Positions 24,378-60,412 of a DNA stretch of 64,000 nucleotides are shown one piece after another. Below the pieces are notes generated by a model. It was not told where the DNA came from and did not search any database. It was given only the letters and a program-made list of their open reading frames with translations. Positions within the stretch are counted from its first letter, which is position 1, and the number at the start of each line of letters is the position of its first letter. The DNA is from Anolis carolinensis (lineage: Eukaryota). The DNA is taken from positions 323,277,402-323,341,401 of the forward strand of contig NC_085841.1 of NCBI RefSeq assembly GCF_035594765.1, in the 5' to 3' direction. Both the position numbers and the translations under genes were made by a program.

Positions 24378-25243
24378 TGTCAGATCCCTGGCTGCTGGGC
24401 ACCAATAACCGTACACGGAGGCCAATCTCTATCTAATATCTTTATTAAGGAAATATATAAAAGCAATAAAAACAAGTGAACAGTATAGTTCAGAAGCAGA
24501 CCTTTCAAATGAGGTCAAATATAGTCCAAAAATGTATTGTCCAATAAATGATATTAGAGTTCAAAGCTTTAATCCACTTGACCGAAACACACACTTTTGC
24601 CAAGCAATAGTGTGGGGAAATTTCAGAGTCTTGGAAGTCCAATGAAACTTGACAACAAGGCTGGAAATAACTTGGTACTTGACTAGGTCCGTGACTAGAA
24701 ACAAGGCAAAACGTGAAGCGTGGAACAAGGTCCATGGTTAAACAGCAAGGCAAGACAAAGGCTTGAATGCTCGATCCGGGAAGCAAGGAACTGGGGTTAC
24801 GAAGTCCACACATGATCTCTCTCCTGAAGCTGATCAATTGACTCCGCAAAGAATCTCGTCAAACACCTATATTGGGTCTCGTTTTCCCGCCAACAGAACT
24901 CTTTCCCTAGAGAACAAGAAGCGAAACCCAACTCTGTCCAGATGCAAGACTCCTTAGAGTTTCCCAAGGGAAGCAGGCCTAATCAGCCTGTTGTTTGGCA
25001 GCGATCCGCAAACTCCTCCGATTTGCTTCTCTGACTCCTCTGTCTCTAGAATAAGATTCCCTCCTGGGAAACGGAGGGGAGTAATGCCCAAGGCCTGTTT
25101 TACTGAATTCTTGAGGGCAAACATCAACATCCGGCAGGTGAAGGGACTCCGGCTCTTGCTGAACCAGCGAAAACCCCATGTTTTCATCTTCATCTGCCAC
25201 AATAGTACTAGGAACAGGACTACAAGGCCCATGAGGCATCACA
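24378..25243 (-). mobile_element. Solo LTR A (866 bp) with an 86-aa ORF at 25239-24979
   Basis: TGT...ACA ends, 5-bp TSD GGTGT (24373-24377, 25244-25248), AATAAA about 65 nt from the minus-strand 3' end. Confidence 0.9.
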
Positions 25244-28200
25244 GGTGTTGAGCTCATGGAGATGACGACATGGGGAAGGATGACACCCTGCATAAAGCAA
25301 TACAACTCACATTCCCATTTATTGGGCAAACAGTACTTGTGTAATTACTAGTTACTCAGATCAAAGCTAGTAATTACATGCTGGCCTAAGCTTAGCAATC
25401 ATAGCTGGTAGAGAACCAGCTAGGTTCATCGAAGGAGGTCTGGTAGCTACATCAATCGGTTGCATATCATGGCTGGTTGTCTGAAAGCTGATAGAAAAGT
25501 GCCTTGAGGTTTGCAACACACAACTCATTTATCCATGTTGTAATTACCAAGGGAAACAACCTGACAGGAATATTATCATTGAACAGAAATTATTCTATTT
25601 TAGCATAGAGAGGTTTTTGTTTATACCACTTCTATCTCAAAACCTCCAAAGCAGTTTACCTCATGATTTGTATTTATCCTATTTTAGATTACATTAATGT
25701 TCAGCCATTCTATTAATAGGAAAAACTGCACAATGAATTCCACTTACAGTGCAATCCTATGCATGTCTAATGAGGAAGAAATTTCCTCAAGTTCTTCAGC
25801 CTTTACACTCACATAAATGACAGAATTGTAGCATTGAATAGGTAGCTTCAAACCACAAATACAAAAATGTTTTTTTTTAGTTGAATGCAAGAGCAGCTCA
25901 ATTGTAGCTATCTTCACTCAATTCATATTTAATTGGACTCATGACAGTTCAGAATACTCACATCCAGCTGCATCAGAAAAGATGAACCATTAAAAGTGTG
26001 AACCAAGAAAAACGGAAATGAAGGACAACTGAACCTACATGGTGTTTTGAAGACCAAGGAACGTAGCTGAATGATGGTGCATTTATATAAACACATAATA
26101 CTTGTGAACCACATAAGAACAAAGCAATGGAAACCTACAGGCAACATCTGAGCACTCCCTGGCGAAGCCACATGGTCACACAGCAGGGGAAATATCATTC
26201 CTAGGCACTGCGGCTCACGTAGCTCCTTATTATCTGAGCAACCCTGGAACAAGAGACCTGAAATTGCTGTTTTGTGAAAAAAAATCCTGCTGCTAAGAAG
26301 GTGGCATGTTTGAATTTAAAAAGCATCCAGCACAGCCAGAGGTTGTTCCTGGATCAAAACACTCACACAAGGATGTAAGAATGTAACAGAAGATATTCTT
26401 TTTTTTCACACACAAAAAGTAATGTTCTGTGGTAAACAACAGATTGATATGCCTAAGAAATGATGAGTCGGAAGTTAGTCTAAAGGCAACAAGTACAACG
26501 TCGTAAGATGAGCTGTCTGAACATTTATTTCTTCTCTAAAATAGTACAGAACCGAGATTAATTGTCTATTAATTTTGATTGTAGCCTTTTCCTTGCCTGC
26601 TTATTTGGGAGTCGTCCTCGTTGCATATAACTTGGAATTAAAAACTAGAAGGAACAAAGTAATTGTAATTTGGCGCACACATCCCTTTTGGTAGCAAGGG
26701 CAAAATGAAATTACATTTCAAATGTAATGGCTTTCTGGTGTGATAAGTAACATTTCTAAAGTTATTCCTTAAGGGCATTTTAATGACAACACTGTTCTCA
26801 GTTGAACTTTTCAAGTTTTATACTATCCCCTTATTAGTTCTTATGGTTTCGTGTTGGGAGTTAAGGGCAGAAGCTAACATTAATACATTACTGGGAAGGC
26901 TTTACAACATTTAAGATAATTGTTAAAAAAATAACATTCAAAACTCAGAATGGAGCTTACATCTGAATTAAACATGTTTGGAACAGAGCTGCACAGGTAG
27001 CATTTTACCTGAATGCTTTACTTGCTGTTTTAAAGAAAGGTCATACATGAATTTCCAAGTAATCACTGTTGTATTGGGTTTTTATTTTGTTGACAACAAA
27101 ACATAAAGTGTAAGTTATTTTGAATAGACCAAGTCTGTGGCCATTTTCATGATAGGTAGTTGCGAAGATGACTTCCAGCATAGCTAATAATAAAATCCAG
27201 TGCAGCTGTAACACTAGCAAACTGTAACCACAGTTTTTCAAACAGGGTTCCTTGTAACCCTAGGGTTCTGCAAGAGGTCTTTAGGAAAGCATGATTGGTA
27301 AACATTTCTTTAAAACTGTAGGTATAATAATGTTTGTGAAAAAGGTCCCTGAAATTTGAAAATTGTTTAAAAGGTTCCTCCAGGGCAACAAAGATGAGAA
27401 AGATTAACCTACATTGTTAAAATTATGTATCTATATTATCCATCCCCATGCTACCCAACAAGACTAATAGCAATTTCATATCAGGGGTATATGGATTCAT
27501 GAAATATACAGGAAGGAAAATGTAACTCCTTCTTCTCCCATCTGCAATAATGCGATCTAAATCACACCACTTACTATTTTGATCACCACTTCTACCACAT
27601 TTTCCACATGTACCACATTTTCAGCTATTCCTAGTGATTCATTTCTGTGTACAGTAATGTTCTCTCAATTTATGCATTCATTTATTCAGGGTTGTTGTTG
27701 GTTTTTGTTTTGTTTTCTAATTTCAATATACCCTCGTATTTTCCTCTCCCGGTTTCATTCCCCAAAATACAAGAAGATGGGTTGAACCTGTTGGAATTCA
27801 TCCATCTACATAAGTTTCAAAGATTGCAGAAACACTTTCATTGAAGCATTTCCATGATTGTGGTCCTTTGTGAAACAAACAGCACTAAAATGAGGAGGGG
27901 GGAGACCCTAAAAACAAGAGGGAGGAGCAAGTGAAGGACATAGCTCCAAAGATACCAGTGACATGCAGTGCAAAGCAGAGAGGTTGGTGCATAAAGACAA
28001 CTAGGGAGAAGAACACAGAGGTATTATGGAAATCAGAAATGAGAAGGGAGATATGGCTGAACTGGCAAGCAATAAGTGTGACAAGATGGTTAGAAATTTG
28101 TTATCTATAACTTAAATATCCCACAGGAAGACATAGGTCTCCAAAACTCCTAAAAGAGCAATTAATGAGACCCTAAGCAAGTAGATGGGTGGTGCCAAAG

Positions 28201-28257
28201 TTAAACAAATATTGAATCTCAAAGGAAGGTACAAATTTAGCAGTGTTCAGATCTGAA

Positions 28258-28341
28258 TGTGCTTTGAATGTGATTCTCCTGCTTCTTGGCAGGGGGTTGG
28301 ACTGGATGGCCCATGAAGTCTCTTCCAACTCTGATTCTATG
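28258..28341 (+). mobile_element. CR1 LINE extreme 3' end
   Basis: Matches the 3'UTR and ATTCTATG tail of the CR1 at 33272-33727. Confidence 0.85.
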
Positions 28342-28696
28342 TGTCTAGATCCTGAGTGGGAGAAATCATCTTCATTTTCTTCAGCCAAAGGTTATCCACC
28401 AACAGAGAAACAATCTAACCACAATAGGGAGGAGGCTTCATTTTACATCACATGCTTCCTCTCAAAGATCTAAATATATTGATAGGTTACCTCCATTTCA
28501 TAAATCATGTGCTATTTGTATTATGCTCTTAGGTATGAATTATAATTTAGCACATGTAACAACATTTTATATAAGACAATAAATTTTAGTCATAGAAACC
28601 ATCATCCTTATCCACGGTATTGCTTTCATAATAGGCTCTGTGCTTTAAATGAGCTATCCAAATGCTGAGGTCTCTTTCCAAAATAGTTTCAGGATA

Positions 28697-29019
28697 CAGT
28701 AGTCTCTCACTTATCCAACACTCCCTTATCCAATGTTCTGGATTATCCAAGCCATTTTTGTAGTCAATGTTTTCAATACATTGTGATATTTTGGTGCTAA
28801 ATTCGTAAATACAGTAATTACAGCATAACAGTACTGCGTATTGAACTGCTTTTTCTGTCAAATTTGTTGTATAACATGATGTTTTGGTGCTTAATTTGTA
28901 AAATCATAATCTAATTTGATGTTTAATAGGGTTTTCCTTAATCCCTCCTTATTATCCAACATATTCGCTTATCCAACGTTCTGCCAGCCCGTTTCTGTTG
29001 GATAAGTGAGACTATACTG
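28697..29019. mobile_element. Tc1/mariner MITE (CAGTAGAGTCTCACTTATCCAA family)
   Basis: TIRs and TA flanks; further copies at 29995, 30205, 37692, 46069. Confidence 0.9.
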
Positions 29020-29257
29020 TATTGGATAATTCCCTCAGACTTGGATCAGACTAAAATTCAGAGCAGTTTTACTGTTCCGATGACATTAGAGTCACTCGCC
29101 TCCACTGAATATTTTTCTTCCTATAATGAGGAAATAGATGATTCCTCGCTGCAGCATTAGTTGTTTTCAACTACAGAAATGCCTGTGGAGAGAGGTAAGG
29201 GACCTCTTTTCTGACAAAAAAAAAGCCTGCAGCAAGGCCAAGGGAGGTAGAATGTGT

Positions 29258-29818
29258 TGTCATGAACAACTTGGAAAGTGTGGATGAGAAGATGCTGTTG
29301 GAAAGCTCAGCTAGCACCCAGCAGCTCTCTCAGTCAAGATCTGAAGCAACATCCCTGGAAGGAGCTACTATACAGCCTGCTGAACAAATGCAAGTGAGTT
29401 CCTCTGAGCAGAATGAGGAAGCATTAACTTTTCCAGCTTTCAGGGACCTGCAAAGAGAGGTCTCGGCTGTGCGGGTCATTGAGATTAGCTGAAAAGAGAG
29501 CCAGCAACAGGTAACACCTGTGAATTTAGGATTTAAGGAACTGTAGATTGGTAACTGGTGGCTGACTGCAATGTCAGTTCTAGAAGCTATAACCCTGGAC
29601 TCTTGCTATCTCGTGTTTCCTGAACCCTGGACTTACCTTACCTTGGACCTTGGCTTATGGACTTTGATTCAACTTTGTACTCTGGTAGTCAGCTCATGAC
29701 CCTGGAACGGACATTTGGATTCTCTCTTGTGTTATTCTATTCATGTTTGCGTCTCTGTTGGACTTCAGCTTGATGTTAACGCATGCTTTACTGGTATTTG
29801 GGGGTTGAGGATTTGACA
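29258..29818 (+). mobile_element. Older LTR-like element C with ORF 29262-29492
   Basis: TGTCA...TGACA ends, ATG at LTR position 5, GA-rich coding-like 5' half and TGGAC-repeat-rich 3' half as in the other LTRs; no TSD found. Confidence 0.55.
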
Positions 29819-29994
29819 AGAGAACTTCTATATCTACATGTATATTGGTGGATTTTAACTGAATTTTTAATACTGTCTGTGTTTAGTTCTAATTTAATGT
29901 TTATATATTTGTCTATTTTAAATTGGATACCAATGCTTTTATGTCAAGCCACTTTGAGTCCCCTTTGGGGAGATAAAGCGGGATAATAATAATA

Positions 29995-30664
29995 CAGTAG
30001 AGTCTCACTTATCCAACATAAATGGGCCGGCAGAATGTTGGATAAGTGAATATGTTGGATAATAAGGAGGGATTAAGGAAAGGCCTATTAAACATCAAAT
30101 TAGATTATGATTTTACAAATTAAGCACCAAAACATCATGTTTAACAACAAATTTGACAGAAAAAGTAGTTCAGTATGCAGTAATGCTACATAGTAATTAC
30201 TGTACAGTAGAGTCTCACTTATCCAAGCTAAACGGGCCGGCAGAAGCTTGGATAAGCGAATATCTTGGATAATAAGGATGGATTAAGGAAAAGCCTATTA
30301 AACATCAAATTAGGTTATGATTTTACAAATTAAGCACCAAAACATCATGTTATACAACAAATTTGACAGAAAAAGCAGTTCAATATGCAGTACTGTTATG
30401 CTGTAATTACTGTATTTACGAATTTAGCACCAAAATATCACAATATATTGAAAACATTGACTACAAAAATGGCTTGGATAATCCAGAAACTTGGATAAGC
30501 GAGGCTTGGATAAGTGAGACTCTACTGTATTTACAAATTTAGCACCAAAACATCACCATGTAATTAAAACATTGACTGTAAATACATTGACTACTAAAAA
30601 GCAGATTGCGTTGCATAATCCAGAATGTTGTGTAAGCGAATGTTGGATAAGTGAGACTCTACTG
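29995..30664. mobile_element. Tc1/mariner MITE containing a second copy of the same family (30205-30527)
   Basis: Outer and inner TIR pairs, each flanked by TA. Confidence 0.92.
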
Positions 30665-32386
30665 TAATAATAATAATAATAATATAAGGAGAAAGACATG
30701 GAATACCTTTGGATCTGTATTCTGAAAGTGGGGTTCAGTCTTGGAAAAATAGGCAGTGACTTGCCAATCTGCTATCAAGTCCCACTTGTTTTGGGTTCCA
30801 CATTAAATATCCAGTAGCTTAGTTCACCTACTGAAGATTCAACATAAAGGCAGGAATCATATGAAATTGACACCAGAAAAATCAATAAAATGGGGTGGAC
30901 CCTGTGACCAAGCACTAATGTAAAAGATATAAGCACAAAAATACTGAGGTCATTTCAAGATGGAGCCCTCCTTCCAAATGCAGCTTTTTCATTTCATTAT
31001 CAAAGTTTCCCCCAAAAGGAATAAGATAGAGGGGATAGGAAATACAAGGGGCAAATATTATTGCATGGATATCATGTGTGGCCTCCATAAAATTCAGACC
31101 ATTCGGTAGGGAGATGGCACAGGAAAAGCACCTTATGCACATCTGAAGGTGCACATAAGATGCTATCTAGCAGATACCAAAACTAGAAGAAAAGCTCAGT
31201 GGGTTAATGAAATCTATTAAAGATGAATACCTGTGAAGCTGTACAATAAAATTCTGCATCAAGAATGTCAACAGTCCAATGGGAAGGGAGTCTGAAATTG
31301 TCCTGTCCAAAACTCTTGTCCCCCAATTCCAGTTTTGTTACTAAAATTATCACAACCAGGGCCCGAAGATGAATGCTGATTTGGTACATTTGGACTGTGT
31401 TAAGCTAAAAGTCATGAAGCAAATAGTCTTTACAGAGCACACTAGAGTGGTTTAAAAGATCTTTTTAATTGCTCAGCAGGGGTGCTAACTCAGCAAAAGC
31501 ACTAATTGCTCGATAAATTTGATAAGATGAAGAAATCTAACCATTAGAGAAGCAAAGTTCCGTAAAGTAATAATCTCCCATGAGCAACTGTAAATGTAAA
31601 AGCAGATAAAATGAGGTGTTTACATCTCAGGAAATTATTAGGTGATAAGTCTGCATAGAACTTCTCAAAGCAATTTCTCAGATATACATATATTCTCTGA
31701 TAATTTTCTCCTATGTTTTAAAAACATGCAAGATGAAAGGTTAATGTTTATTACTATACTTAGTCTTTAAATGCTACAGGAAAATGTATTCCAACATCAG
31801 TCACACAATGTAATTCTATGTGTGTTTATTTAAAAGTTCTATTACGTTTACTGAAGCTTACTGACAAGTCAGGATGCATCTACACTATAAAATTAATGTG
31901 GTTCAACACCTCTTTAACTGCGGTGGTTCAGTGCTATGTAATCATGGGAGCTATGAGGCACCAGCATTTCTCAGCAGAGAAGGCTAAAAACCTACTAAAA
32001 CTATAAACTATGATCCTATAGTATTGAGCAGTAGCAGTTCAGGTTCGAACAAATTCTACAGTGTAGATACACCCCAAGTCTACATAGTATGGCTCCATGG
32101 TCTTATTAAGCAATGGATGTAAAGGAGGGTAATGTGTTTTGAATGAATAAAGATTTTAATTTGTGCAATATTATTTCATATTATACAGCTAACATGAAGG
32201 TTATTTTATACACCATATTGTTCATAATTGTGTGCATGAAACCAGTTTGTGTACACTAAACCATCCGAAGGCAAAGGAGTTACTATCTAACCATCAATGT
32301 GGACAATGGACTTGATAGAATGAGCCTTTCCCACATTTGTCCACCTAGGAACTTGGTGCAACACAATCTCAGTTGAGAGTTTAGAG

Positions 32387-32520
32387 CAGTGGTTCTCAAC
32401 CTGGGGTCCCCAAATGTTTTTGGCCTACAACTCCCAGAAATTCCAGCCAGTTTACCAGCTGTTAGGATTTCTGGGAGTTGAAGGCCAAAAACATCTGGGG
32501 ACCCCAGGTTAGAACCACTG
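32387..32520. mobile_element. Short palindromic hAT MITE
   Basis: TIR CAGTGGTTCT; perfect 8-bp TSD GTTTAGAG. Confidence 0.9.
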
Positions 32521-33271
32521 GTTTAGAGTCAGGAGCTGTCATCATCCATAAAGATTCCACCTCCCTCACGAGAAAACATGTCCACCATAGGAACAGTTTT
32601 GAAGATTAGCATTTGGTGCTGGGTGATGGAAGGAAATCCAGGACACTACAGGTTTATTGCCTACCCCACTACCCAGCAATAGCCTTGCATAAACTGGTCA
32701 AGGTAATCTTGGAAGGGGTGTTCGAGCACTATAGGATTAAGATTCATGGGACTTCAATATACTTGCCATGGCTGTCCTCAGCACTCTATAGGTATAATGG
32801 CAGCTACAGATCTGCTTCAATACCTCATTGGCTCAAAAAAAAACTTGGCAGGACATATCTTGGACCTGGTCCTTGCTGCTGAAACAAATGGCGAATGCTC
32901 AAAATCCTTTTGTATTGGTCAGATCATGTCATTGAAAAGGCCTTCATTTCCCTGATTTATGACCTACTCTGGATGGAAGACAGTAGAGTACTACCATGTT
33001 GCTATTCTTAAGTATCTTGGCAGCTTCTTATAACATTGATCATGGTATCTTATGAGACCACCACCACTGGATGGTAGTAGGAAACACTGTGTTACAGTGG
33101 CTCTGCTTTTATCTATGGAACCAATCCCAGGGATTAGCACTAAGGATTTCAGTTCAGCTCATCGCTATTGATCTGTGGGATGGCACAAGGTACAATTGTA
33201 TCTGTTCTGCAGCTCAATCTATATGAGGTCACTGGGAGATCTTAGGTGGGGTTTGACTACTGCTTGTCATC

Positions 33272-36195: not shown

Positions 36196-36224
36196 GTGAG
36201 TGAATTAGGCGAGTTCGTGTAAAT

Positions 36225-37505: not shown

Positions 37506-37691
37506 CGTTTTTCCATATATACATTACTACTTGTGATATAGTACAATATATTATATAATACTAAAAGCATAATATACTGGCAGTGTATTATATATGTTGT
37601 GGTATAATAATATAGTACAATATGATAATATATAATAATATTATATATTACATGTAATAATAATAATATTCAGTATAGTGGTATAGTATTA

Positions 37692-38013
37692 CAGTAGAGT
37701 CTCACTTATCCAACACTCGCTTATCCAACGTTCTGGATTATCCAACGCATTTTTGTAGTCAATGTTTTAATACATCGTGATATTTTGGTGCTAAATTCGT
37801 AAATACAGTAATTACTACATAGCATTACTGTGTACTGAACCACTTTTTCTGTCAAATTTGTTGTATAACATGATGTTTTGGTGCTTAATTTGTAAAATCA
37901 TAACCTAATTTGATGCTTAATACCCTTTTCCTTAATCTCTCCTTATTATCCAACATATTCACTTATCCAACATTCTGCCGGCCCGTTTACGTTGGATAAG
38001 CGAGAGACTACTG
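37692..38013. mobile_element. Tc1/mariner MITE
   Basis: Same family as 28697-29019; TA flanks within an AT-rich tract. Confidence 0.9.
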
Positions 38014-38099
38014 TATATAGTAATATATAATACAACATTTGCTATGCTTATAATATATTATATATACATATAATAGTGATAATAACACTATAGTGTAAT

Positions 38100-43899: not shown

Positions 43900-46068
43900 G
43901 ATTAGAGAGATGGGCCGAAACTTACAAAATGAAGTTCAACAGGGACAAATGCAAGATACTTCAGTTAGGCAGAAAAAATGAAATGCAAAGATGCAGAATG
44001 GGGGACGCCTGGCTCTACAGCAATACATGTGAAAAAGACCTTGGAGTCCTCGTAGACAACAAGTTGAACATGAGCCTACAATGTGATGCGGTGGTGAAAA
44101 GAGCCAATGGGATTTTGGCTTGCAGAAATAGAGGTATAGCGTCTAGATCCAGGGAAGTCATGCTACCCCTCTATTCTGCCTTGGTCAGACCACACCTGTG
44201 TTCAATTCTGGGCACCGCAGTTGAGGGGAGATGTTGACAAGCTGGAAAACGTCCAGAGGAGGGCGACTAAAATGATCAAGTGTCTGGAGAACAAGCCCTA
44301 TGAGGAGCGGCTTAAAGTGCTGGGCATGTTTAGCCTGAAGAAAAGAAGGCTGAGAGGAGACATGATAGCCATGAACACATATTTGAGGGGAAGTCATAGG
44401 TAGGAGGGAGCAAGCTTGTTTGCTGCTGCCCTGCAGACTAGGACGCAAAACAATGGCTTCAAACTACAAGAAAGGAGATTCCATCTGAACATCAGGAAGA
44501 ATTTCCTCACGGTGAGAGCTGTTCGGCAGTGGAATTTTCTCCCCCGAACAGTAGTGGAGGCTCCTTCTTTGGAGGCTTTTAAGCAGAGGCTGGATGGCTA
44601 TCTGTCGGGGGTGCTTTGAATGAGATTTTCCTGCTTCTTGCAGGGGGTTGGACTGGATGGCCCGTGAGATCTCTTCCATCTCTATGATTCTATGATCCTC
44701 CTCTTTGTTCTTATTTTCTTCCCTGCGCACATGGTAATGTTCAAAGGAGAGAAAGGAAAAAGGATACATAGAGTTTGAGAGAAAAGTGTTGATGAGGCCT
44801 ATGGATGTGGATACATTGTAGCATCATAGGAATTATGTTTCATTTTGTTAGGCTGGAAGTTTATGTGCCTAGAAAGTCGTCCTACGGGGCCACGGTCCTG
44901 TTGACAACTGCTGGTGCATACCTGTCACCAGCCAAGGGGGCCCCTGCCCCCCCCCCCCCACACACAAACACACTCACACTGATGCAGCATCGGGATCGGT
45001 ACAACCATCTGGGATACCTGGGGATCATCAGAAGAGACTCTCAGGTGGACTTAGACCCATGTGACCTGCAGTTGCCCGGCCATTCTTGGAGGTGGGGAAC
45101 TCTATGTTCTGATCTGAACCAGTTTAGATTAAAGGGTTAAGTCGAACTGTGTAAGCAGAGGGGAAGTGGACTTGGAAATGGGGTTGGCTGCTGGTCTAGG
45201 AAGGGTTGAGGGTTCCGAGAAAGGGCGCTGTTGCAATTAATTATGGCCCCTTGCCCTTGGAAAACTATAACTCCATTCCATGTTAAACTATATATCTCTT
45301 ATATTAGGGATCGGGGTAGTTGTGTTCAATAACAAGTTCACATTCCAGGGAATTTCCAAGGAATTTCATAAAAAGGTTACTTTTTAGAACGATTAGAAAA
45401 GACCATGTGGCTGGCTGTATTTTCCAATGGAGCCACATCTGATAAGGCAAATATATTATATATTCATATTTGGAGGGGGGGGGGGTCTGATTTCACTGGT
45501 ATTGTATTTAAGCCTGAGACTTACACCACTTCTGAAAAGCCTAAAATGATTGTACAATTTAGATTCAGTGGCGCTGTGAACAGAACAGAATTATTTCACT
45601 AGAACAAGAGAAGAGAGTGGTGCTTTCTTCCAATTTCCCATGACTACTGTGTCCTTTGATGTTGAGGTCATCCTGAGTAGCATGAAAGAAAGGCAACTTT
45701 AAAAACTCACCTGTCTCTTTCTTCAGCTGGCCTTTTTAGTTCGATCTCTGCTTTCATACATGAAAAAAGCCCATTTACAGAAAACATACCTTGGATCCAA
45801 TGTGCTTGACAGTTTTCTTCAAAGCAGAAATCTTGCCTGAGGCTCATCCAGATTCCAAATATGTTTTCAGCTACTTGGAACTGGTGCATATATACCATAT
45901 TCTGGAACCAGTAGAAATGAACCATCAATCCCACCACACTGTCAGAATAAGAGTGCAGCAAAACATTGTTCTACATTAATTAGTACCATCCCAATCTGAT
46001 CAAACCAAACTCTTCTATCTTTGCTTGTTGGACTTTCAGTGTTTGAGTGGAAAATAATAAGCAAAGTA

Positions 46069-46388
46069 CAGTAGAGTCTCACTAATCCAAGCCTCGCTTA
46101 TCCAAGCCTCTGGATAATCCAAGCCATTTTTATAGTCAATGTTTTCAATATATCGTGATATTTTGGTGCCAAATTCATAAATACAGTAATTACAACATAA
46201 CATTATTGTGTATTGAACTACTTTTTCTGTCAAATTTGTTGTATAACATGATGTTTTGGTGCTTAATTTGTAAAATCATAACCTAATTTGATGTTTAATA
46301 GGCTTTTCCTTAATCCCTCACTATCCAAGATATTCGCTTATCCAAGCTTCTGCCGGCCCGTTTAGCTTGGATAAGTGAGACACTACTG
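46069..46388. mobile_element. Tc1/mariner MITE
   Basis: Same family as 28697-29019; TA flanks. Confidence 0.9.
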
Positions 46389-46463
46389 TAGTTTCAATTA
46401 TTTTCTTCTGGGTTACACTCCATTTCCATGATAATATCAGACGTATGAATTGCTAAGGGATTC

Positions 46464-50020: not shown

Positions 50021-53005
50021 GGTACCAAGGGATGGAGGCCTTCAGAGCTCGAGGAAGAGACAGCAGCGCAGAAACCAAGCCTCGGGAAGAGCAAATAAAT
50101 AAAAAGCAAGCACTGCCCTGGATCATGGGTTCACAAACCACAGAACACTGATGCATAAACCACAGGGCACTGATGCATTTGGAGCTTTCAGGTGCTTTTG
50201 TGGGGAGTTCATTGTTTGGCTGCCTCACTTTGAAGCTACGTTCAAACTGCATTAAATGGTCATTATTAGATTAGCTCTTTGACCCTTCACAGTAGAGGGG
50301 AGTGTACAAGAGGAAGATCACACTGCCATCTTAAATCCATGGCCTGCCAAGTATTCCCCCCCCCCCCAATATTTTTTATTAAACATTTACTGGGAGTGTG
50401 GGGGGTGAGGGAAAAAGAGAAGGAAAAAGAAAAAAAAATAAGGGAAAATATTATTAGTTAGTTGCATCTTTACACATATCTAATATGTTGCAAGGAGAAA
50501 ACAGAGGGTGGGAATAACTGGGGTATTGGAAGTTATTTTACAAAATTCTCATTACTACAATTCGGTCTTCTCTATTTCATAAAATATTGAAGAGACTAAC
50601 CATTTTAATTTTTAGTCCGTTAATGTATCTCCTTGTGTCTTCTCACATTATCTCATGATCTTCATATCTCCTTTTCCAGTTCTTCAATGGAAATTTATCT
50701 TGATGTTTCATAGCAGATTGTTTCTCTTAATTCTTTTCTTAAGTTATTTATTATTATTAACGACGAAGAAAATTACACAATTTTCATTTAGTAGGTTAGT
50801 ATTTGTATCATTTTAATATTATCATGCTTTCTCTCTTTTTGTATTACATCAGATTTATATAATTCTATATAAACAATCTTTTTTTAATATCCATCTCAAT
50901 CTTATTAGTTAATGTCATTTCACAAAATTTCTTAAATTTTGGGTGGGTGCTTAGTACAAAATAATTACATACACACTGTATACACACACACACAATATTA
51001 ATAGTAATAATATTTTCCATCCACAACTCTTGAGTTCAAAATTTCATGGTTTTTATATATATTTATTTGATTAAAAGCCAAACTTTCCATGCCTCAAATA
51101 TTGAAGCCCAATTTAATTTATTAAATTTGGCCATTTCAAAAACTCTTCTGGTCTAACCATAATCACTCAGTATGATAATATTTTAAAGACTTTCCCAGAT
51201 TACTCTCCAACTTCTCTTTTTCAAGGTTTTGTTCATGCTGGCCCATTCAAAATTTGTCTCCAGTATCTGGCACAGTTCTTTCTCTACCTCTGGTTCCTGT
51301 TTTTCATGTTCTGCAACTTCAGTCCATATCTTTCTCAGATTTTGAACATTTTCATAGACACCTCTCCATCTGAGTAAGGACCTTAGTAAATGAACTGGTT
51401 GTTATTTTAGCTATATATTATCTTGTATACAGATCTTTTGACTGAAGATAATCCAGCTTTGATACCTCTCCAGTTGATTTATTCTTTATTAAGGTTCCAA
51501 ATTTGTAATGTAGTATGTCTATAGTGCTTGATATGTCTTGTAATTTATCCAGTTGGCTGTTTGCAGTTTCAAAGGCATTGTTTAAAATTTCAATTTTTCT
51601 ATTCATTTCCTTTTTCCATTCTTCTCTTCCGTTTCCATCTGCTTTTTCTTCTGAATCTATATACACAGTCATCATTTTATCTTGTTCTTTTGTTGGCCTG
51701 TCAAGTGTCTATGTCTGTCTTTGCCAGTGTTTTTGATTGCACCAATGTTGAAAAAAATGGTTTACAGAAAGTGCACATACTTGTTAGTCAAGTAGCCCAT
51801 GGTTCTTGTGCTACTCCACTTAGAATCCAATCAATTAATAAGTCTTCGACTAATGAGTCTTGTAAGAAGGGCCAATTTGTCATACATTTCCAAAATTGGA
51901 AATTCTCTATGTGGAAATCCTCCAGAAAGCAGAAGCTCCATATATCAGTATCAGTAGAGAATTATCTATTTATAGATTTTGGGATTTACAAACTTCTTCT
52001 TACAAGAGAGTAAGGACTCTGTGCCCTCAAGGAGAAGCCTTCTTGTAAAGTATATATGGTTACTTACTTGGGATTCTTATTGAATGATCATACATTCCTC
52101 TTTTCAGAGGGCAGTCATTATTATAAGACTTTGTGTATACAACAGATATGTCCACTATATATGTCTATTACTATCATGTTGTAAAAAACCATTACTATTG
52201 TAATTGATATACCTCAGCAAATGACACATCCCAAGATTCCATGGCAGTTAAAATGGCATCAAACCGCATTAATTCTGCACGGCAGATGCAGACCACAGAC
52301 ACTTGTGATCTGCATCTACCGTGGGGCAGGGTTGTGTTTTGGAGCATGGGTAAGTGAAACCATGGCTACTGAGTTTGCAGATATGTTTGCTGTGTTGTAT
52401 TCATTTCTTAAAACAAAGTACTGTAAAATAAAAATTTGTTTGTGATTGTGGCTTGTTAACAAAGGAAACCTGTTGTTGTCCATCCTTGCATCACAGAGCC
52501 CCCACCCCCCAATCCCATGTTAACAAAGCGAGCAGGTGTTTTCTAATAACAAACATGATTCAAAAGTAAATGAATAGGCAGGTGCTAAACTTGAGTATTA
52601 CTTTATTTTCATTAGTCACAGTAGTTTTTCAGTGAGCTGCAGCTGAATTAGTTGGGAATTGCTTGTGACACAATATCCACAAAAACAGGCTGCAAGTGTC
52701 ATGTAATCATAGAATTATTCTGAACTCGTTTATTGTTAAATCCCAGTTCATCTCAAGTGAACAACAGTTCCATAACCAAGTTTTTCAAGTAGTTCCCTTT
52801 GGTACAGAAGAAAATGATATAGGAGTTGAATGAGAAACAAAAGTTGAAGCCTTCCATACTTTTAGCAGTTTCCTCGTTTGATCCTAATAGGAACGCTTGT
52901 TCAGTAATCCAGGCAATTAAATAGTAGTGGTAGAGTCATTCAAAAATGATTGCATTACTCTAGCCTTACATTTCTAATTGGGCACAAGATGTGGTCATAG
53001 TGCAA

Positions 53006-53365
53006 TAGATGGTAATAGAAAAAGAAGATTAGGAAGAAAGGAGGGAGAGAGGAGAAAGGAAGAGAAATAGCAAAAAGGAAAGAAAAGGAAAAGACCTCAA
53101 GAAGATACCAGGAAGTCACGAATCTTTTAACTTACCATCTAATGTTTATGATTGTCTTAATCATCTATTGATCTGCTTACCTTCCCTCCCGCCTCCTTTC
53201 TCTAATCTTTCCTCTGTCTCTATATCTTATTGTACTTTTCTCTTTCTTTCCTCCTCTCTCATTCTTTCTACTTCTCTCTTTCCCACTTTTCTTTTTCTTT
53301 TCCTTAAATTTTCTTTTATTAATATATATTTTTTAAAAAAATTAATAAAGATTATATTTTTAAAA
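53006..53365 (+). mobile_element. Retroposed insert, probably an L1 3'UTR
   Basis: Perfect 20-bp TSD AAGATGTGGTCATAGTGCAA (52986-53005, 53366-53385); AATAAA and A-rich end. Confidence 0.7.
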
Positions 53366-53403
53366 AAGATGTGGTCATAGTGCAAAAGAGCAATGGGATA
53401 GAT

Positions 53404-54143
53404 TGCGGTCGGCGGCCAGACTAATAACTGGGGCGAGTTACAGGGAGAGATCCACTCCCTTGTTCAAGGAGCTCCACTGGCTACCGTTTATTTTCCGGTC
53501 CTAATTCAAGGTGCAGACCATCATTTATAAAGCCCTAAACGGTTTGGGACCCACCTACCTTCGTGACCGTATCTCTTATCATAAACCTGCCCGATCCCTT
53601 CGATCGTCAGGGGAGGCTCTCCTGTCATCACTGCCAATATCTCAGGCCCGCCTTGTGGGAACAAGGGAGAGGGCCTTCTCTGCTGTGGCCCCCCCATTGT
53701 GGAACTCACTGCCCGGTGAGATTAGGCAAGCCCCCACACTAGCAGCCTTTAAAAAAGACCTGAAAACATGGCTCTTCCGTTGTGCCTTTGGAAAGTAATC
53801 ACTACATACATCCCTTTTGCTGCTCTCCTTCAATATTTGTCCTCCAGATCGCACCACCACTTTATGATCCTGTCCTCTGTGGTTTTTACTCCTACTTCCT
53901 TTCTCACCTCGAGTTTTAATCTAGAGTTCATGTGGCCTGCCCTTGGTTTTATTGTTCTTTGATCTTGTTTAATGTAGTGTATATTTTCTTTTATTGTGTT
54001 GTTTAATGTGCTATGATTTGTTGTTCTATTATATTTTGTTATATTGTATTGTTCTGGGCATGGCCCCATGTAAGCCGCCCCGAGTCCCCATTGGGGAGAT
54101 GGTGGCGGGGTATAAATAAAGTTTTTTATTATTATTATTATTA
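53404..54143 (+). mobile_element. L2 LINE 3' end (fairly young)
   Basis: LFKELHWLP...YKALNGLGPTYLRDRI...RSLRSSGEALL...RAFSAVAPPLWNSLP...FKKDLKTWLF; stem-loop and (TTA)n tail. Confidence 0.93.
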
Positions 54144-54315
54144 TAGATGACCAGATACAATTCAGTTTTTAAGCACATTGTAACTGTCAGTTCATTGGAT
54201 TTATCCACAATATGTTAGTGCATGCAAAACTCTGCAGTGATTGAATAACATGTTTTCTGTCATGAACAGCTGATAGAAGGATGTTTGTGTCAATATAGCT
54301 TTTTTCCCATCATAG

Positions 54316-54417
54316 TTAATGTCTAGTGGGATTTGGCAGAGAGGTGAAGATGAGGAAGGTTTTTATGGGTTTTTACCTGAAGACATCCTGAAAGAAGTTA
54401 ACCGAGCTGCAAGGCTG
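54316..54417 (+). CDS. G2E3: G2E3 coding exon: [34 protein letters not shown]
   Basis: TAG / GTAAGG splice sites; the MSSGIWQRG...YGFL..DI.KEVNRA signature of G2E3. Confidence 0.96.
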
Positions 54418-54766
54418 GTAAGGATATATCTCACATAGCTTGTTTGATCAGAGGGGTGTGGCCCCAGATATGCTAAAGCATTGTGCTAATTGATATTATA
54501 ACTGTATTGCAGTTAGCTAATGCTTTCTTTTAAAGTTTGCAGGGTTTCATCATCAAGGAAGGTATTTGTAACATTGAATTAAGAAATTTATGTATAATTG
54601 ATCCATAAATTTGATGTAATATTTTGGGTGAGAGAACAGTTCCAGAACATCAAAAGTACATGTGCAGTAAACAATGAATTTAGCATTTTTCTTTTGTTGC
54701 TTGAAGTGAAAAGAACAAAAACACATCTTCCATCTGATCAGTGGGACTAGCACACACTCATATATA

Positions 54767-54801
<35 letters not shown>

Positions 54802-55688
54802 GCATGTGTAAGACAAGATAAATGAATCCGACTTTGAAATGCTAGAACTGGCTGTTGTTTCTCCCAAAATGGCTCATGGTTTGAGAGTCCATATGAACAC
54901 TTCCAGTGACGTTAGTAAATAGCATACAAAAGTAAATATAAAAATAGAATTAAAGGATTTTAATAATAATAAAACAATATTTACCTTTGTAAAAAAGAAC
55001 GCTATTTTAAAAAATGAAAGATCTTAAAACATTTCTGTTAAATCAACACAGCAGTGCTCAGCCTGTTTCTTTAAAACCTTTCTGTTTTAAAAGTTTATCT
55101 GAGTAAATGATAGTAGCCTGCCTTCTTGGTTTGCCAGGAAGGGATGGGGCAGCTGTACAACATTGCCTCCAAATCCCAAATTCAAAACCTCCCACAACTG
55201 TACACTTCTACCATCCATCACAGAAATACTAAACATGTATGGTGGGTGTCATGTGCAAAATTGTTGGGTATTTCAAATCTATCAAAGCTATCTTAATGTT
55301 GCTGTTACAACAAAGATTTGTAATTAAAAAATGTAGGAATCAAGGGTCAAATGAACCTCTGGAATTCTGCTGGCTAACAGTGGAATCCATTGCAGGCAAC
55401 ACAGAAACCTGATGGGATAAGTGGGTGGTTTTTTTCCCATCTATTTTATCTTGATAATAAAAAATAAGGTCCAGTTTTATTTAGATCATTACTTTACAGT
55501 TCAACCCAATATGCTTTTCCCTCCATGTAAGCTTGTATGTAAACTAACTGTATCTTGTTTCTGAATCTGGAAATGATTACAGACCTTAATGTATGCATTG
55601 AAATTAGTTTTTAATTTAAAACAAAACACGGTAGATCAGAAGGTTGCTGAGCTGCTTTAGGCTAATGTGTTTATTATTTTCTTTTTAG

Positions 55689-55813
55689 AAATGCAGTATC
55701 TGTAAGAAAAAAGGTGCTTCAATTGGTTGTGTGGCATCCAGATGCAAACGAAGCTATCATTTGCCCTGTGGTACTGAGAAAGGATGCATCTTCCAGTTCA
55801 GGGGTTCTTTCCC
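55689..55813 (+). CDS. G2E3: G2E3 coding exon: [41 protein letters not shown](P)
   Basis: TAG / GTAAGG splice sites; extended-PHD core CxxC..GASIGC....C.RSYH.PC. Confidence 0.96.
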
Positions 55814-56018
55814 GTAAGGTTTTTAAATCTCTTTCAGTAGAATTATGTGAATTAATTTAATTTCTGAATTGTACACTACAGCTGTGTAGTTTGCTTCAGC
55901 AGAAGGGATGAAGAATCCAGTGGCACCTTAAAGATTAAAAAGTTTTATTTGCCTTATGTTTTTATAGGCTGCAGCCTCTTCAGCTACTTTCCTAGATTTC
56001 CTGTGTTTTACCTGTTAA

Positions 56019-56310
56019 CAGGCCTGTAGCCAGGATTTTGTTAGGGGGGGGGAGGGTGAGTCTGAGTGAGAGAGGATCTAACCTAGCAAACTTTTGTATT
56101 GTTTATCCCAATACCCCCATGCATTTGGAATATATTGAGCATGGTGATCAGATCATGATATGAATAAACATAACACTTTAAATAATAAATGTTATTTATT
56201 TACTTTCATTAACAAAATGTACCAGTAAGGCCTTCTCGCGGACCACCCTGAGGATTTCAGGGGGGCTGAAGCCCCTCAAGCTGCCCCCGCCCCCCGCGGC
56301 TACATGCCTG
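56019..56310. mobile_element. hAT MITE
   Basis: TIR CAGGCCTGTAGCC / GGCTACATGCCTG; perfect 8-bp TSD CCTGTTAA. Confidence 0.88.
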
Positions 56311-56335
56311 CCTGTTAAACTTTGTTTATTAAAAA

Positions 56336-58335
56336 CTAGCTTGGGAACCCGGGTTATTTGAAAAGGCATTATTTGTCTTTGATTGTTGGGTATTCTCAGT
56401 TTGGAGTGGGTGAACTACAATTCCTAGAATCATGGGTCAATCCTCCCCAAACCCTGCCAATATTCAGAGTTGGCCATTTTGGGTCTGTGCATCAAGTGTG
56501 GTGCTGATCTGTCATCGCCTGGCTGCAGTGCTCTCTGGATGGGGGTGAACTGCTACAACTCCCAGATTCCAGGGGCAATTGTCCCAAAACATCTGTCAGT
56601 ATCCACAGCAGGCTATGTTGAGTCTGTGTGCTAAGTTTGGTCCAGATCCATCATTGGCCGGGTTCAGTGCTCTTTGGATGCAGGTGAACTACAACTCCAA
56701 AAAGCAAGGCCCATTCCCACAGACCCCTGCAGTATGTTCAGTTGGTCCTGGTCCATTGTCGGTGGGGGCCACTGTTTTTCTGGATGCAGGTGAACTATAA
56801 CTCCCTTTCCCCCAAACTTGTCCAATATGTTGTATTAGTTATGGGGCCTCTGTGTGCCAAGTTTGGTCTTGGTCCATCATCGGTGGGGTTTGAAGTGCTC
56901 ATTCATTGCAGGTGAACTATAAATCCCAATACCTACTCCTCCCAAATGTCCAGGTCAATTCCCCTCCAAACCCACTGTTGTGTCTCAGAAACAGCATAGC
57001 CAAAGTAAGGATGAAGGAAGGGGATTCTGGGTTTCAGATACAAGAGCCAGATGATGGGATGCAGGATGAATTTCAGGACGATGGCATGGGGATGGGAATC
57101 ATACAGGCTGATTTAGAGGCTCGAGAAATGCAGCTTGAGCAGAATGAACTGTTGACCCAGCCGGCCATAGATAACAGCCAGGATGACATTCCCATGGGAA
57201 TTTATGAGCAAGAGATGTCTCAAGCCCCGGTGTCTCAAGCCCCGGTTCAGGTGCAAGATAACAAGGACCTTGAAGGGGCACCATCATTATCTAGGGCGGA
57301 CCGGTTGTTATGGAAGGGAGTACCTCAGCCTCGGAGGAGTGTAAGATTGGCGGGGAAGAGAGAGGCCTTGGAAGGAAAGAGAAATGCATTCTTGGGTTGC
57401 TTTTAAAACTGTGTGTTTTGAGATAGATTTTTGTCAAAGCAAATTCTCACTTCATCTGAATGGATGTTCCTGCTTCATGCCTAAGAGAAGTTTCCTGTTC
57501 CTGGATCTTGGTAACCTTTGAGCCTTTGTTCTTTGGGATCTATTGTCTAATGTTTTGGCTTATGGACTATTGGATTTTTATGGTTTATGGACTATTGGAT
57601 TTTTATGGCTTATGAACTATTGGATTCCTATTGACTCTTTTACTGCAACTTTGAAAACCTTATAACTGCCTGCTTTGATATATTCGTGCTTTTGTTCAAT
57701 AAAACTACAAAAGACTTCCTTCTGTATGTGACTTGGTGTCCATAGCAAGGTGAATTATTCTGAGGTGCGACACCCACCAGTATTCAAATCTGGGCATATC
57801 AGGTATGCATGGCAAGTTTGGCCCACAGCCATCATTGTTTGGGCTTATAGCATTCTGGGTGTAGGTGAACTACAACTCCTCTAAATTCCCAGTTGGAGTC
57901 ACAGTGCTCTGACGATGCAGCGTGAACTACAACTTCCACCATGTGCAGTCAATCCCGAAACTCCTCCAGTAAGTTTAGTTCCTTCTCAGTTCTGCAGACA
58001 GATTTGAAAGGGAAGAGCAGTAGGTGGGGTCATGCAAATTCCACAGCAATGGAGAACCCTGGGATGCCTGCCTGTGGTGCAAGGGCAGTGGGCGGGGTCA
58101 TGCAAATTTCACAGCAATGGAGAACCCTGGAATGTCTGCCTGTGGTGGAAGAAAAAGCAAAATCTAGGATGAAATTGTCCCCAAATGAAAGCATTCCTTG
58201 GGTGGTGGGCCGTAGTCTTTGGGAAGGACATTGGCAGGGGTAGGGCTGCATGTTCATTGAGCTCGCTGTAACCGGAATGTCAGTGAAAAAGAGTGACTTG
58301 CTGGCTTCTTGGCACTGGGAACTGCTTCAACTTCT
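56336..58335 (-). mobile_element. Helitron-like element with tandem ~120-bp units, interrupted by solo LTR B
   Basis: CTAG at 56336-56339 next to the palindrome AACCCGGGTT; body homologous to 19435-20284. Confidence 0.6.
56976..57772 (+). mobile_element. Solo LTR B (797 bp) with a 131-aa ORF at 57011-57406
   Basis: TGTTGTGTCTCAGAA / TTCTGAGGTGCGACA inverted ends, 5-bp TSD CCCAC (56971-56975, 57773-57777), AATAAA at 57698. Confidence 0.9.
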
Positions 58336-58584
58336 TTCTGTACACAAGCTATAATGTATCACATTATGCATTTCATGAAGCAGACTAGCTTACAAAGGGT
58401 CATGGTAACATAATGTTTCAAAAGTTTCTTTCAATTATTCTGAAAAACTTTTTTTTTAAAAAGAAAGTTTGTGTCACTCAGGTTGTTATCAGTATAATTA
58501 TATTTACATTAGTCTGTGTTTTAGATACTGATCTTGTACAAGCAGAAAGATAGGATATTAAACAAATGTGATTGTGTACTCCAG

Positions 58585-58747
58585 ATCATATTGTTGGAAA
58601 CACCGTCCTACTCAAAAACGGCCATCTACTGCTAAAGGATCATCACAATGTACAATATGTTTGGAACTGGTTGAACATGCCCCATCATACAATATTCTGA
58701 CAAGTCCATGCTGTAAAAATGCTTGGTTTCATAGAGAGTGCTTACAG
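58585..58747 (+). CDS. G2E3: G2E3 coding exon: [54 protein letters not shown]
   Basis: CAG / GTATGT splice sites; RING-like finger CTICLE...[14 protein letters not shown]. Confidence 0.96.
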
Positions 58748-59691
58748 GTATGTCTGGAATGCCATGATAGTACTGGCTTTTAAAAATTAAGAAAAAGCTA
58801 TTAAATGTGACCATAGACTAGTGAAACCTAAATTTTATTTTGGACTTCAGTACCCAGAAGACACAGCCTGCTTGGTCAACAGTTGGGAATTCTGGCAACT
58901 GAAATCCAAAGCATCTGGAAAGCTAAAGTTTGGAAAACACTGATCTATACAGTAGTTCAGTTTTTAATGTTGTTTTGTACTTTAAATGTTACAGACTTTT
59001 ATTAAGAATGCCAGTCAGCCATATTCTCTTCCAAAATCCTCCCCAGAGTCAGCTAACATTCCTGTAGAACTGCTGTATTACTGTTGGGGTAGTTTCCTTT
59101 AATGGGGTTCTCCTTCATAGCTGTCTTAATGATTTCTTGTAGTTCTGCAAAATTTGGAGTTCCCCAGATCTACTGATACATTATTTTTGGTGTGTATGCT
59201 ATCATTTTGACTACATAAAGATAAACACTTGGAGATGTGCTACATGATAAAAAATATTTAATATGCTAACATGTAGTTGTAGAAAACCCAACCCTCAGCT
59301 GATAATATGCAAAACTCAAAAGTATTAAATGTTGCATTAAGTCACGTTTCCACCAGCTGTATTAGGACAGTTAAAGAGAGTGCTCAGTGAATCTAACAAA
59401 AACCTAACTTGGAAATAAATTATGCAACAATTGGTCTGATGGGATGGATCGATTTCAGGTTTCCACATCACCAAACCGAAGTAACTGAAATGGAGCTCAA
59501 GAAATTCGGCTGTATGGTATTATGGGTACATCACCAGATTTTGCTTTAGCTGTAATGCCAACATCTGAACTGAGTACAAAAGTACAATCATTTTCACAGC
59601 AGGTAAACAAGAGTTCTGCTCTTGCTTTTCTCAGCCATATTCCAACAAACAGTTCACCACTTGGAAAAATTAATGGGCAATAAGTCAAAAA

Positions 59692-60412
59692 TGGAGTAAC
59701 AAAGGCTTACTCTTTGGCTCTCATGACAGACAGAATGATGCACTTTAGTCCTGAAACACCCAGTACCAAACCCGAGTCCAGTAGTACTAACTACAAAAGT
59801 TTATTAGAAAAGCAGGTACAAATAGAAAAAGGGCATTTCCCAAAAGGGCAGAAAAGTACAGAATACAAAATAGCAATACTCCAGAAATGTCCAAGTACAG
59901 AGAGCCAAAATCCAGAGCAGTCATTCAGACATATATCCATAAGCATGAAATCAAGAACTTATTCCAAGGCAATTCCTTCAAAGAACATAAGTAAACAGAA
60001 GACTTGAATCATGAACTTGAGAGCCGAGGCAAGAAAGCCATCCTTAAGGTAACATCTTCTCCTTAATCTAAGCCTGACCAAGAAGCCATGAGAACATGCC
60101 GAAGGCACCTGGACTTCAAAGACTTCTCACGGATTCTCTCACATTAGTCAATTTTTCACTCCTCCCATTCTCAAGTCTAATCTAACTTCTCTTGAAAATT
60201 CCCCATCAGAAGGCTCTTTCCCAGGGGACTCTGGACTTTCACTTTCCCTTGTTTCCCCTGTTGCCTGGGAACAGGTACTGGAATTCAAAGCATCAGCCTC
60301 GTCTGGCTGCAGTTCTCTCCTAGTATGGACAGACCCATCACTCTGAAACCCATCAAATCCTTTGTCCTCTGAAATATCAGAAAAATCCTCCATTGCTTGC
60401 TGAGCCACAACA
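59692..60412 (-). mobile_element. Solo LTR D with an 81-aa ORF at 60393-60148
   Basis: Minus start TGTTGTGGCTCAG resembles LTR B; AATAAA near 59800; candidate TSD AAAAA is low complexity, so the left end is uncertain. Confidence 0.65.

What the first reader, a model, noticed from the sequence alone, without database searches (positions are those of the whole stretch)
24378..60412. Four different solo LTRs each encode a small acidic protein ending in an HMGN-like RRSxRLA motif
Seen: LTR A (24378-25243, minus), C (29258-29818, plus), B (56976-57772, plus) and D (about 59692-60412, minus) show no obvious nucleotide similarity beyond their termini, yet share one layout. Each has an ATG within the first 36 nt of the LTR, a 60-110 residue Asp/Glu-rich low-complexity stretch, then a basic end. 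The ends read A ...YSRDRGVREANRRSLRIAAKQ, B ...LSRADRLLWKGVPQPRRSVRLAGKR, C ...RLCGSLRLAEKR (one frameshift) and D ...FSREVRLDLR/NGRSEKLTNVR (one frameshift). Established: the HMGN nucleosome-binding core is RRSARLSA, which docks on the H2A-H2B acidic patch, and U3-overlapping accessory ORFs exist in retroviruses (MMTV sag, lentiviral nef). Inference: these retrotransposon families may carry a U3-encoded chromatin-tethering microprotein, or a Pol/integrase tail extending into the LTR, conserved at the protein level across families. I know of no description of this in squamate LTR elements but cannot search to confirm.
Basis: partly seen in the sequence, partly recalled or inferred. Interest (0 to 1): 0.82.

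Follow-up and report, generated by a model that had tools for sequence, protein, structure and literature searches.

The report
Retrotransposon integrase tail with HMGN motif
These four lizard repeats are leftover ends of chromodomain retrotransposons whose integrase gene reads into the terminal repeat, adding a conserved tail that ends in an HMGN-like motif and likely grips nucleosomes; they are likely not stand-alone microproteins.

Summary
The four LTRs are real, and three carry the motif in the window; D's quoted reading is a frameshift artefact. The ORF is likely not an independent gene. In full-length copies of family A and of B's clade, Pol (PR-RT-RH-IN-SH3-chromodomain) reads through the polypurine tract into U3 of the 3' LTR and ends at the motif. 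A D-type LTR is followed by the same kind of gag; no internal region was found for C. An early in-frame ATG is absent in 25 of 25 B and 20 of 23 D copies, and the tail lies upstream of the inferred promoter. The tail is under protein-level selection: no commonest-codon stop in 409 codons versus 62 of 818 in other frames; 10 of 11 shared indels keep frame; dN/dS 0.30 in the A clade. RRSxR[IL] follows the chromodomain in 60 of 71 tail-clade copies and 0 of 34 of a tail-less sister lineage, and recurs as PRRSARLKA in Podarcis elements. It matches tested acidic-patch binders (yeast Dot5 RRSARIAT, HMGN RRSARLSA). Binding is untested. Plant CRM elements give the precedent for an LTR-encoded integrase tail. 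Verdict: new variant of vertebrate chromoviruses.

The parts
24378..25243 (-). Solo LTR, family A (young chromovirus family), 5-bp TSD ACACC
   Evidence: the other 39 listed matches are 95-97% identical, with three LTR pairs 5.4 kb apart
24979..25242 (-). U3 frame equal to the last 87 residues of Pol in full-length copies; intact in this copy
24994..25020 (-). HMGN-like motif RRSLRIAAK
24838..24873 (-). TATA-like box (LTR nt 371) and 10-mer at LTR nt 397 complementary to the self-primer of full-length copies (inferred transcription start)
29258..29818 (+). Old LTR, family C; no TSD seen; internal region not found
29259..29514 (+). Decayed U3 tail frame of C with frame breaks; motif remnant CGSLRLAEK at 29470-29496
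56976..57772 (+). Solo LTR, family B, 5-bp TSD CCCAC
56977..57406 (+). U3 tail frame of B (141 codons in intact copies), frame break near codon 14 in this copy; motif RRSVRLAGK at 57332-57358
   Evidence: read-through from the chromodomain in B-clade elements
59736..60412 (-). Old LTR, family D (3' end corrected from 59692)
60123..60411 (-). Decayed U3 tail frame of D; stop and frame break before the motif, remnant ERIREK at 60123-60140

Best explanation
The LTR frames of A and of B's clade (likely also C and D) are the C-terminal tail of the Pol/integrase of a clade of self-priming Gypsy chromoviruses, read through the polypurine tract into U3 of the 3' LTR, and the tail's terminal RRSxR[IL] motif likely docks the integration complex on the nucleosome H2A-H2B acidic patch. 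Shown: the read-through (A, B clade), the domain order, the protein-level selection and the motif conservation. Inferred: the tail is translated only from the 3' LTR of genomic RNA, since U3 of a 5' or solo LTR lies upstream of the start site; solo LTRs, including these four, are non-expressed leftovers. Also inferred: the acidic 60-110 residue stretch is a disordered tether, and arginines 1, 2 and 5 act as anchors like those of HMGN, Dsup and Dot5. The group I chromodomain would read a histone-tail mark while the tail holds the nucleosome face, giving two-point capture of a target nucleosome.
For: L021 has a 1275-codon Pol frame ending RRSLRIAAKQQAD inside the 3' LTR, with Pfam RT, RNase H, integrase, SH3_Tf2-1 and Chromo. 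B-clade elements L305 and L307 (LTR pairs 95.9% and 98.6% identical) have Pol frames that run through the chromodomain to RRSARLARK inside the LTR; L269 shows a TGTTGTGACC LTR start in frame with the chromodomain. A self-primer predicted from B-type LTR sequence found two B-family 5' LTRs followed by gag and protease (2 of 3 hits). The same logic found one D-type LTR with gag behind an insertion with an 8-bp TSD (1 of 2 hits). Among 110 of 150 chromodomain hits fetched, RRSxR[IL] lies within 690 nt in 60 of 71 tail-clade copies (43 in the same open frame) and 0 of 34 copies of a short-LTR lineage. Selection: the commonest codon is a stop in 0 of 409 tail codons versus 62 of 818 in the other two frames (p=8e-12); shared indels are multiples of 3 in 10 of 11 in the tail versus 7 of 41 downstream (p=1e-5). 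A-clade shared versus singleton N/S is 68/60 versus 49/14 (p=0.001; downstream control p=0.87). Pooled pairwise dN/dS is 0.30 for the tail, 0.17 for its last 33 columns and 0.11 for the chromodomain. Motif arginines use all six codons and the serine both codon families. Podarcis Pol ends PRRSARLKA in 5 of 6 chromodomain-bearing cluster members. Dot5 RRSARIAT needs R6, R7 and R10 for nucleosome binding (PMC13347269); RRSAR is the part resolved on the acidic patch for HMGN2 (PMC12487698). 39 of 91 A-clade copies have Ala at position 4, as Dot5 does.
Against: No binding, expression or integration data exist here. A five-to-six residue basic motif could also be an NLS, a kinase site or a DNA contact. 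Selection tests are uneven: B (p=0.12) and C (p=0.15) are not significant, D is significant but so is its downstream control (p=0.0005), and C's synonymous fraction is not higher in the tail frame (0.29 versus 0.37 and 0.23). The dN/dS pairs are non-independent, were chosen for intact frames, and dS is near saturation in the last 33 columns. Rhineura, Vipera and Crotalus proteins have an acidic, Arg-rich tail without the strict motif, and only 1 of 150 representatives carries it. D-family copies have Glu at position 4 and C-family copies Glu at position 8, unlike HMGN. No PPT junction was seen for C or D. A sister lineage has many copies with no tail, so the tail is not needed for transposition in general.
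Confidence: 0.6

Rival explanations
1. The tail is a real Pol extension, but the basic end works as a nuclear-localisation signal, a phospho-switch or a non-specific DNA contact rather than an acidic-patch anchor.
For: Snake and amphisbaenian tails keep an Arg/Lys-rich end without the strict motif. Basic NLS-like segments were noted in CRM integrases (PMC3605345). Dot5 also binds free DNA at low salt (PMC13347269).
Against: Ser at position 3 (90 of 91, 25 of 25, 23 of 25, 23 of 25 copies) and Ile/Leu at position 6 are as conserved as the arginines while position 4 varies. That is the HMGN/Dsup/Dot5 pattern and, from my own knowledge, not a classical NLS pattern.
Confidence: 0.22
2. The tail is cut from integrase by the element's protease and acts as a separate small chromatin tether, like MLV p12.
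For: The PPT linker evolves almost neutrally (dN/dS 0.85) and the tail resembles a small acidic-plus-basic protein. p12 is a cleaved tether suggested to bind the acidic patch (PMC9040877).
Against: No cleavage site was looked for or shown. The linker's relaxed dN/dS is expected from its overlap with the PPT. A released C-terminal peptide has no evident second anchor to the complex.
Confidence: 0.08
3. The LTR encodes an independent ATG-initiated or spliced microprotein, also made from solo LTRs.
For: A-clade and C LTRs have an ATG at codon 2. Some anole gene models splice the LTR frame onto host genes (P0005, P0007, P0010; P0009 unnamed).
Against: No early Met in 25 of 25 B, 20 of 23 D and 19 of 19 related copies. 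The codon-2 ATG is part of the terminal sequence and also starts 7 of 27 readable tail-less LTRs. The frame is continuous with Pol and lies upstream of the inferred start site.
Confidence: 0.06
4. The frame is neutral read-through, kept open by chance or by nucleotide-level constraint on U3.
For: B and C individually show no significant excess of synonymous shared variants, and D's control is also positive.
Against: 0 stops in 409 codons, frame-keeping indels, third-position bias in the A clade (67 of 127 shared changes) and synonymous recoding of the motif.
Confidence: 0.04

Closest known systems
Vertebrate Tf1/sushi-group chromoviruses (V-clade: Sushi-ichi, Amn elements)
   Same: gag, then PR-RT-RH-IN with a C-terminal chromodomain; self-priming PBS; TGT..ACA termini; 5-bp TSD (PMC6317226 and PMC3601003 passages)
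   Different: Most amphibian and fish relatives seen here, and the short-LTR lineage in this genome, end Pol near the PPT or read on without an acidic tail. This clade adds about 60-140 U3-encoded residues with a conserved terminal motif.
Plant CRM group A centromeric retrotransposons (CR motif / CHDCR)
   Same: [quoted passage not shown]
   Different: In CRM the CR motif replaces the chromodomain; here a group I chromodomain is kept upstream of the PPT and the tail is added. CRM uses a tRNA-Met primer. The tails hit no Pfam family at E below 0.14. Sampled copies are spread along chromosomes.
HMGN nucleosome-binding motif and its like in Dsup and Dot5
   Same: RRSxR[LI] core with Arg 1, 2, 5 and Ser 3; anole RRSARIAA[KR] versus Dot5 RRSARIAT; Podarcis RRSARLKA versus HMGN RRSARLSA
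   Different: It sits at the end of a retrotransposon Pol after an acidic linker. No homology to HMGN outside the motif, and binding is untested.
Retroviral acidic-patch tethers: foamy virus Gag CBS and MLV p12
   Same: An arginine-anchor contact with nucleosomes that influences integration (PMC12125541 abstract, PMC9040877 passages)
   Different: Those are Gag-derived. Here the candidate tether is on integrase, is LTR-encoded and has the HMGN-type sequence.

Membership tests
Ty3/Gypsy chromovirus, Tf1/sushi group | PR-RT-RH-IN order with a C-terminal chromodomain | tested here: met
   (family A); tblastn and translation for the B clade
Ty3/Gypsy chromovirus, Tf1/sushi group | Self-priming PBS complementary to the R start | tested here: met
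   10-nt match in L022, L023 (8 nt in L021) and L307; the prediction located B- and D-type 5' LTRs
Ty3/Gypsy chromovirus, Tf1/sushi group | TG..CA termini and 5-bp TSD | tested here: met
   A, B and full-length copies; degenerate or absent for window C and D
Ty3/Gypsy chromovirus, Tf1/sushi group | Internal region linked to family C LTRs | tested here: inconclusive
   0 of 4 pattern hits was a C LTR; no linked pol in 25 flanks
Ty3/Gypsy chromovirus, Tf1/sushi group | RT phylogeny with named reference elements (Sushi-ichi, Amn) | not tested
   Trees used the IN C-terminus and chromodomain with fish, amphibian and squamate database proteins only
Plant CRM group A | Integrase ORF extends into the 3' LTR | tested here: met
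Plant CRM group A | CR motif in place of the chromodomain; tRNA-Met PBS | tested here: not met
   PF00385 chromodomain upstream of the PPT and a self-primer
HMGN-like nucleosome-binding motif | RRSxR[LI] core with three arginines and a serine | tested here: met
   window C and D copies are decayed
HMGN-like nucleosome-binding motif | Arginine-dependent binding to the H2A-H2B acidic patch | not testable with these tools
   Needs EMSA or cryo-EM; AlphaFold 3 is reported to misplace HMGN2 itself (PMC12487698)
HMGN protein family | Homology over the whole HMGN protein | tested here: not met
   No HMG14_17 or other Pfam hit below E=0.14 for 12 tails, and 0 PDB hits at E<=10
Independent U3 accessory ORF (sag/nef type) | Own conserved start codon or spliced mRNA, separate from pol | tested here: not met
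   Frame continuous with pol; no early Met in B, most D and related copies; splicing not testable

The most novel reading that the evidence does not exclude
A squamate-wide chromovirus clade evolved a bipartite nucleosome reader: an integrase chromodomain plus an LTR-encoded HMGN-type acidic-patch anchor that sets where and when it integrates. Thousands of solo LTRs then seed this ready-made nucleosome-binding exon across the genome, where host genes may occasionally splice it in.
Probability: 0.4. Interest if true: 0.8.

Novelty: new variant of a known kind. Interest (0 to 1): 0.63.

Why it matters
It would be, as far as my searches reach, the first retrotransposon integrase with an HMGN-type acidic-patch anchor, an animal parallel to the plant CR motif whose partner was unknown in the 2011 survey. 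It extends a motif so far tested in HMGN, Dsup and Dot5 to mobile elements. A short peptide makes the claim directly testable, and a tail-less sister lineage in the same genome is a natural control. It also explains why abundant solo LTRs in lizard genomes look coding and get spliced into gene models.

Tried and rejected
A PPT pattern for B-type LTRs gave 22 hits (20 distinct) and no pol upstream; the real junction has a different purine tract. A first self-primer guess for B gave 1 hit without gag. The SH3_Tf2-1 search returned only a non-chromodomain Gypsy family whose Pol stops before the PPT (30 of 30 loci read). The C self-primer pattern gave 4 hits, none a C LTR. L266 and L265 (B-family 5' LTRs) lack the 3' junction. 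Expression: no RNA holder listed; four runs guessed as RNA are contigs only and show nothing about transcription. No tail-histone complex was modelled. Three look-ups of earlier findings returned nothing. Gao et al. 2008 was not held. Five rows with more than 3 stops were dropped before the tree; L236 was left out of the dN/dS. Literature searches found no description of this tail (listings and abstract openings only). Repbase and subscription journals could not be searched, and no supplements were read, so the read-through may be noted there. UniRef anole and Podarcis gene models already include the tail without comment.
Full report
Observation. The four repeats are at the stated places, with D ending near 59736. 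They share no blastn similarity with each other. Each has many relatives in the own genome: the 40 best-scored matches were about 95-97% identical to the window copy for A, 85-95% for B and 70-86% for C and D. In all four families one frame opens at LTR nt 2, runs through an acidic stretch and ends in a basic segment. The motif pattern hit 3 times in six frames of the window, in A, B and C. Shuffles of natural tails give RRSxR[IL] with probability 1e-4 to 1e-3. The closest named proteins are from Anolis carolinensis.

The ATG claim fails. An in-frame Met in codons 1-12 is present in 0 of 25 B, 3 of 23 D and 0 of 19 related copies. In A and in 11 of 20 C copies it is codon 2, part of the terminal TGTGATG/TGTCATG, and TGTCATG also starts 7 of 27 readable LTRs of a lineage without any tail. 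The window B copy has a frame break near codon 14, and the window D copy a stop and break just before the motif.

Full-length elements. Three A elements of 6.2 kb have LTRs 98.6-99.3% identical and 5-bp TSDs. L021 has an unbroken 1275-codon Pol frame that passes the chromodomain and the polypurine tract and ends inside the 3' LTR at the motif; L022 has one stop in Pol, and L023 has stops and a break at the motif. Pfam gives RT, RNase H, integrase, SH3_Tf2-1 and Chromo, and a Ty3-type gag with a zinc knuckle. The bases after the 5' LTR are complementary to LTR nt 401-410, 30 nt behind a TATA-like box. Self-priming is described for the Tf1/sushi group (PMC6317226, passages). The tail (nt 2-265) is therefore in U3, upstream of the inferred start, and would be transcribed only from the 3' LTR. 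This is inference; no RNA data bear on it.

Families B, C and D. Two first patterns found no internal region. A primer predicted from B-type LTR sequence found two B-family 5' LTRs (77-81% identical to window B) followed by gag and protease, 2 of 3 hits. Their integrase led to L269-L274: L269 has a TGTTGTGACC LTR start in frame with the chromodomain, and the full-length L305 and L307 have Pol frames ending RRSARLARK and GKRNA[FL]LGCF inside the LTR, as B's tail does. These LTRs are relatives of B, not B itself. For D, 1 of 2 hits was a D-type LTR (67-75%) with the primer, an insertion with an 8-bp TSD, and gag. For C, 0 of 4 hits was relevant; C is assigned by layout only.

Internal controls. 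Of 150 chromodomain hits, 110 were fetched: 71 belong to the tail clade, 34 to a short-LTR lineage and 5 to host genes. RRSxR[IL] lies within 690 nt in 60 of 71 and 0 of 34. The short-LTR lineage stops at or soon after the PPT, and a non-chromodomain Gypsy family stops before it. The tail families form one clade (99/99). With Rhineura, Vipera and Crotalus they group at 94/87, and with Podarcis added at SH-aLRT 91, which is moderate support.

Selection, counted column by column among natural copies (91 A-clade, 25 each of B, C and D). The commonest codon is a stop in 0 of 409 tail codons versus 62 of 818 in the other frames. Shared indels keep frame in 10 of 11 versus 7 of 41 downstream and 29 of 82 singletons. 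Shared versus singleton N/S is significant for the A clade (p=0.001, control 0.87), not for B (0.12) or C (0.15), and for D it is matched by its control (0.0008 versus 0.0005). Pooled pairwise dN/dS among 10 intact copies is 0.11 for the chromodomain, 0.85 for the PPT linker, 0.40 for the acidic part and 0.17 for the last 33 columns; the pairs are not independent and dS is near saturation at the end. Motif arginines use all six codons. In old C and D copies some motif columns mix R, C and H, as CpG decay would give.

Other species. Podarcis Pol proteins have an acidic tail ending PRRSARLKA in 5 of 6 chromodomain-bearing cluster members. A Leptobrachium family ends RRSPRLQA without an acidic linker in 4 of 6 (shuffle p=0.01, weak). 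Rhineura, Vipera and Crotalus proteins have an acidic, Arg-rich tail without the strict motif; the Salvator record is acidic but ends early. Only 1 of 150 representatives has the strict motif.

Mechanism. Cryo-EM places HMGN2 RRSAR and Dsup RRSSR on the acidic patch with the fifth arginine as anchor (PMC12487698, passages and section 8). Yeast Dot5 RRSARIAT needs its three arginines and the patch (PMC13347269, passages). A-clade tails with Ala at position 4 (39 of 91) match Dot5 at 7 of 8 residues. Foamy virus Gag uses an arginine anchor that affects integration sites (PMC12125541, abstract), and MLV p12 is suggested to bind the patch (PMC9040877, passages). I put a nucleosome-tethering integrase tail at 0.6, an NLS or DNA-binding role at 0.22, a cleaved tether at 0.08, an independent microprotein at 0.06 and neutrality at 0.04.

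Comparison and novelty. An integrase ORF entering the 3' LTR and encoding a targeting motif is known from plant CRM group A, where it replaces the chromodomain (PMC3059260, passages; PMC3605345, passages and section 7). The elements here are members of the vertebrate self-priming chromoviruses, not CRM and not HMGN homologues. Nine library searches listed no paper on this tail or on an HMGN-like motif in a retrotransposon integrase; Repbase, subscription journals and supplements were not seen. Verdict: new variant of a known kind, interest 0.63.

Noticed in passing
L099-L120: A large, diverse set of solo LTR subfamilies starting TGTTGTGACTCAG, nearly all with the same acidic frame and an RRSxR[IL]-type end; likely thousands of copies.
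   Followed up: partly
P0005, P0007, P0009, P0010, P0026: Public gene models (ATP13A-like cation ATPases and others) include the LTR tail frame as an exon. These may be annotation artefacts or real exonisation of a nucleosome-binding motif.
   Followed up: no
L236 / L267 (G000:C6:61588102): A very divergent chromovirus with a 466-bp LTR and a short tail ending RRRSARLAARN, close to the HMGN core.
   Followed up: partly
L121-L150; window 54039-54144: A young non-chromodomain Gypsy family with many open frames of about 1600 codons; Pol stops about 45 nt before the LTR. A fragment of its LTR lies in the window.
   Followed up: partly
P0187 cluster (Leptobrachium): Frog chromovirus Pol reads on past the chromodomain and ends RRSPRLQA without an acidic linker; older origin or convergence is open.
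   Followed up: partly
Distribution on small contigs differs among families (A 1 of 40, C 0 of 40, B 6 of 40, D 10 of 40 outside C1-C6); no consistent link to the tail.
   Followed up: partly
D family, LTR codons 116-204: Shared variants downstream of D's stop also show third-position bias (21 of 39) in the same frame; unexplained.
   Followed up: no
window 28695-29022, 30203-30529, 37687-38017, 46057-46390: Four copies of a roughly 330-bp repeat that is also inserted inside LTR L101.
   Followed up: no
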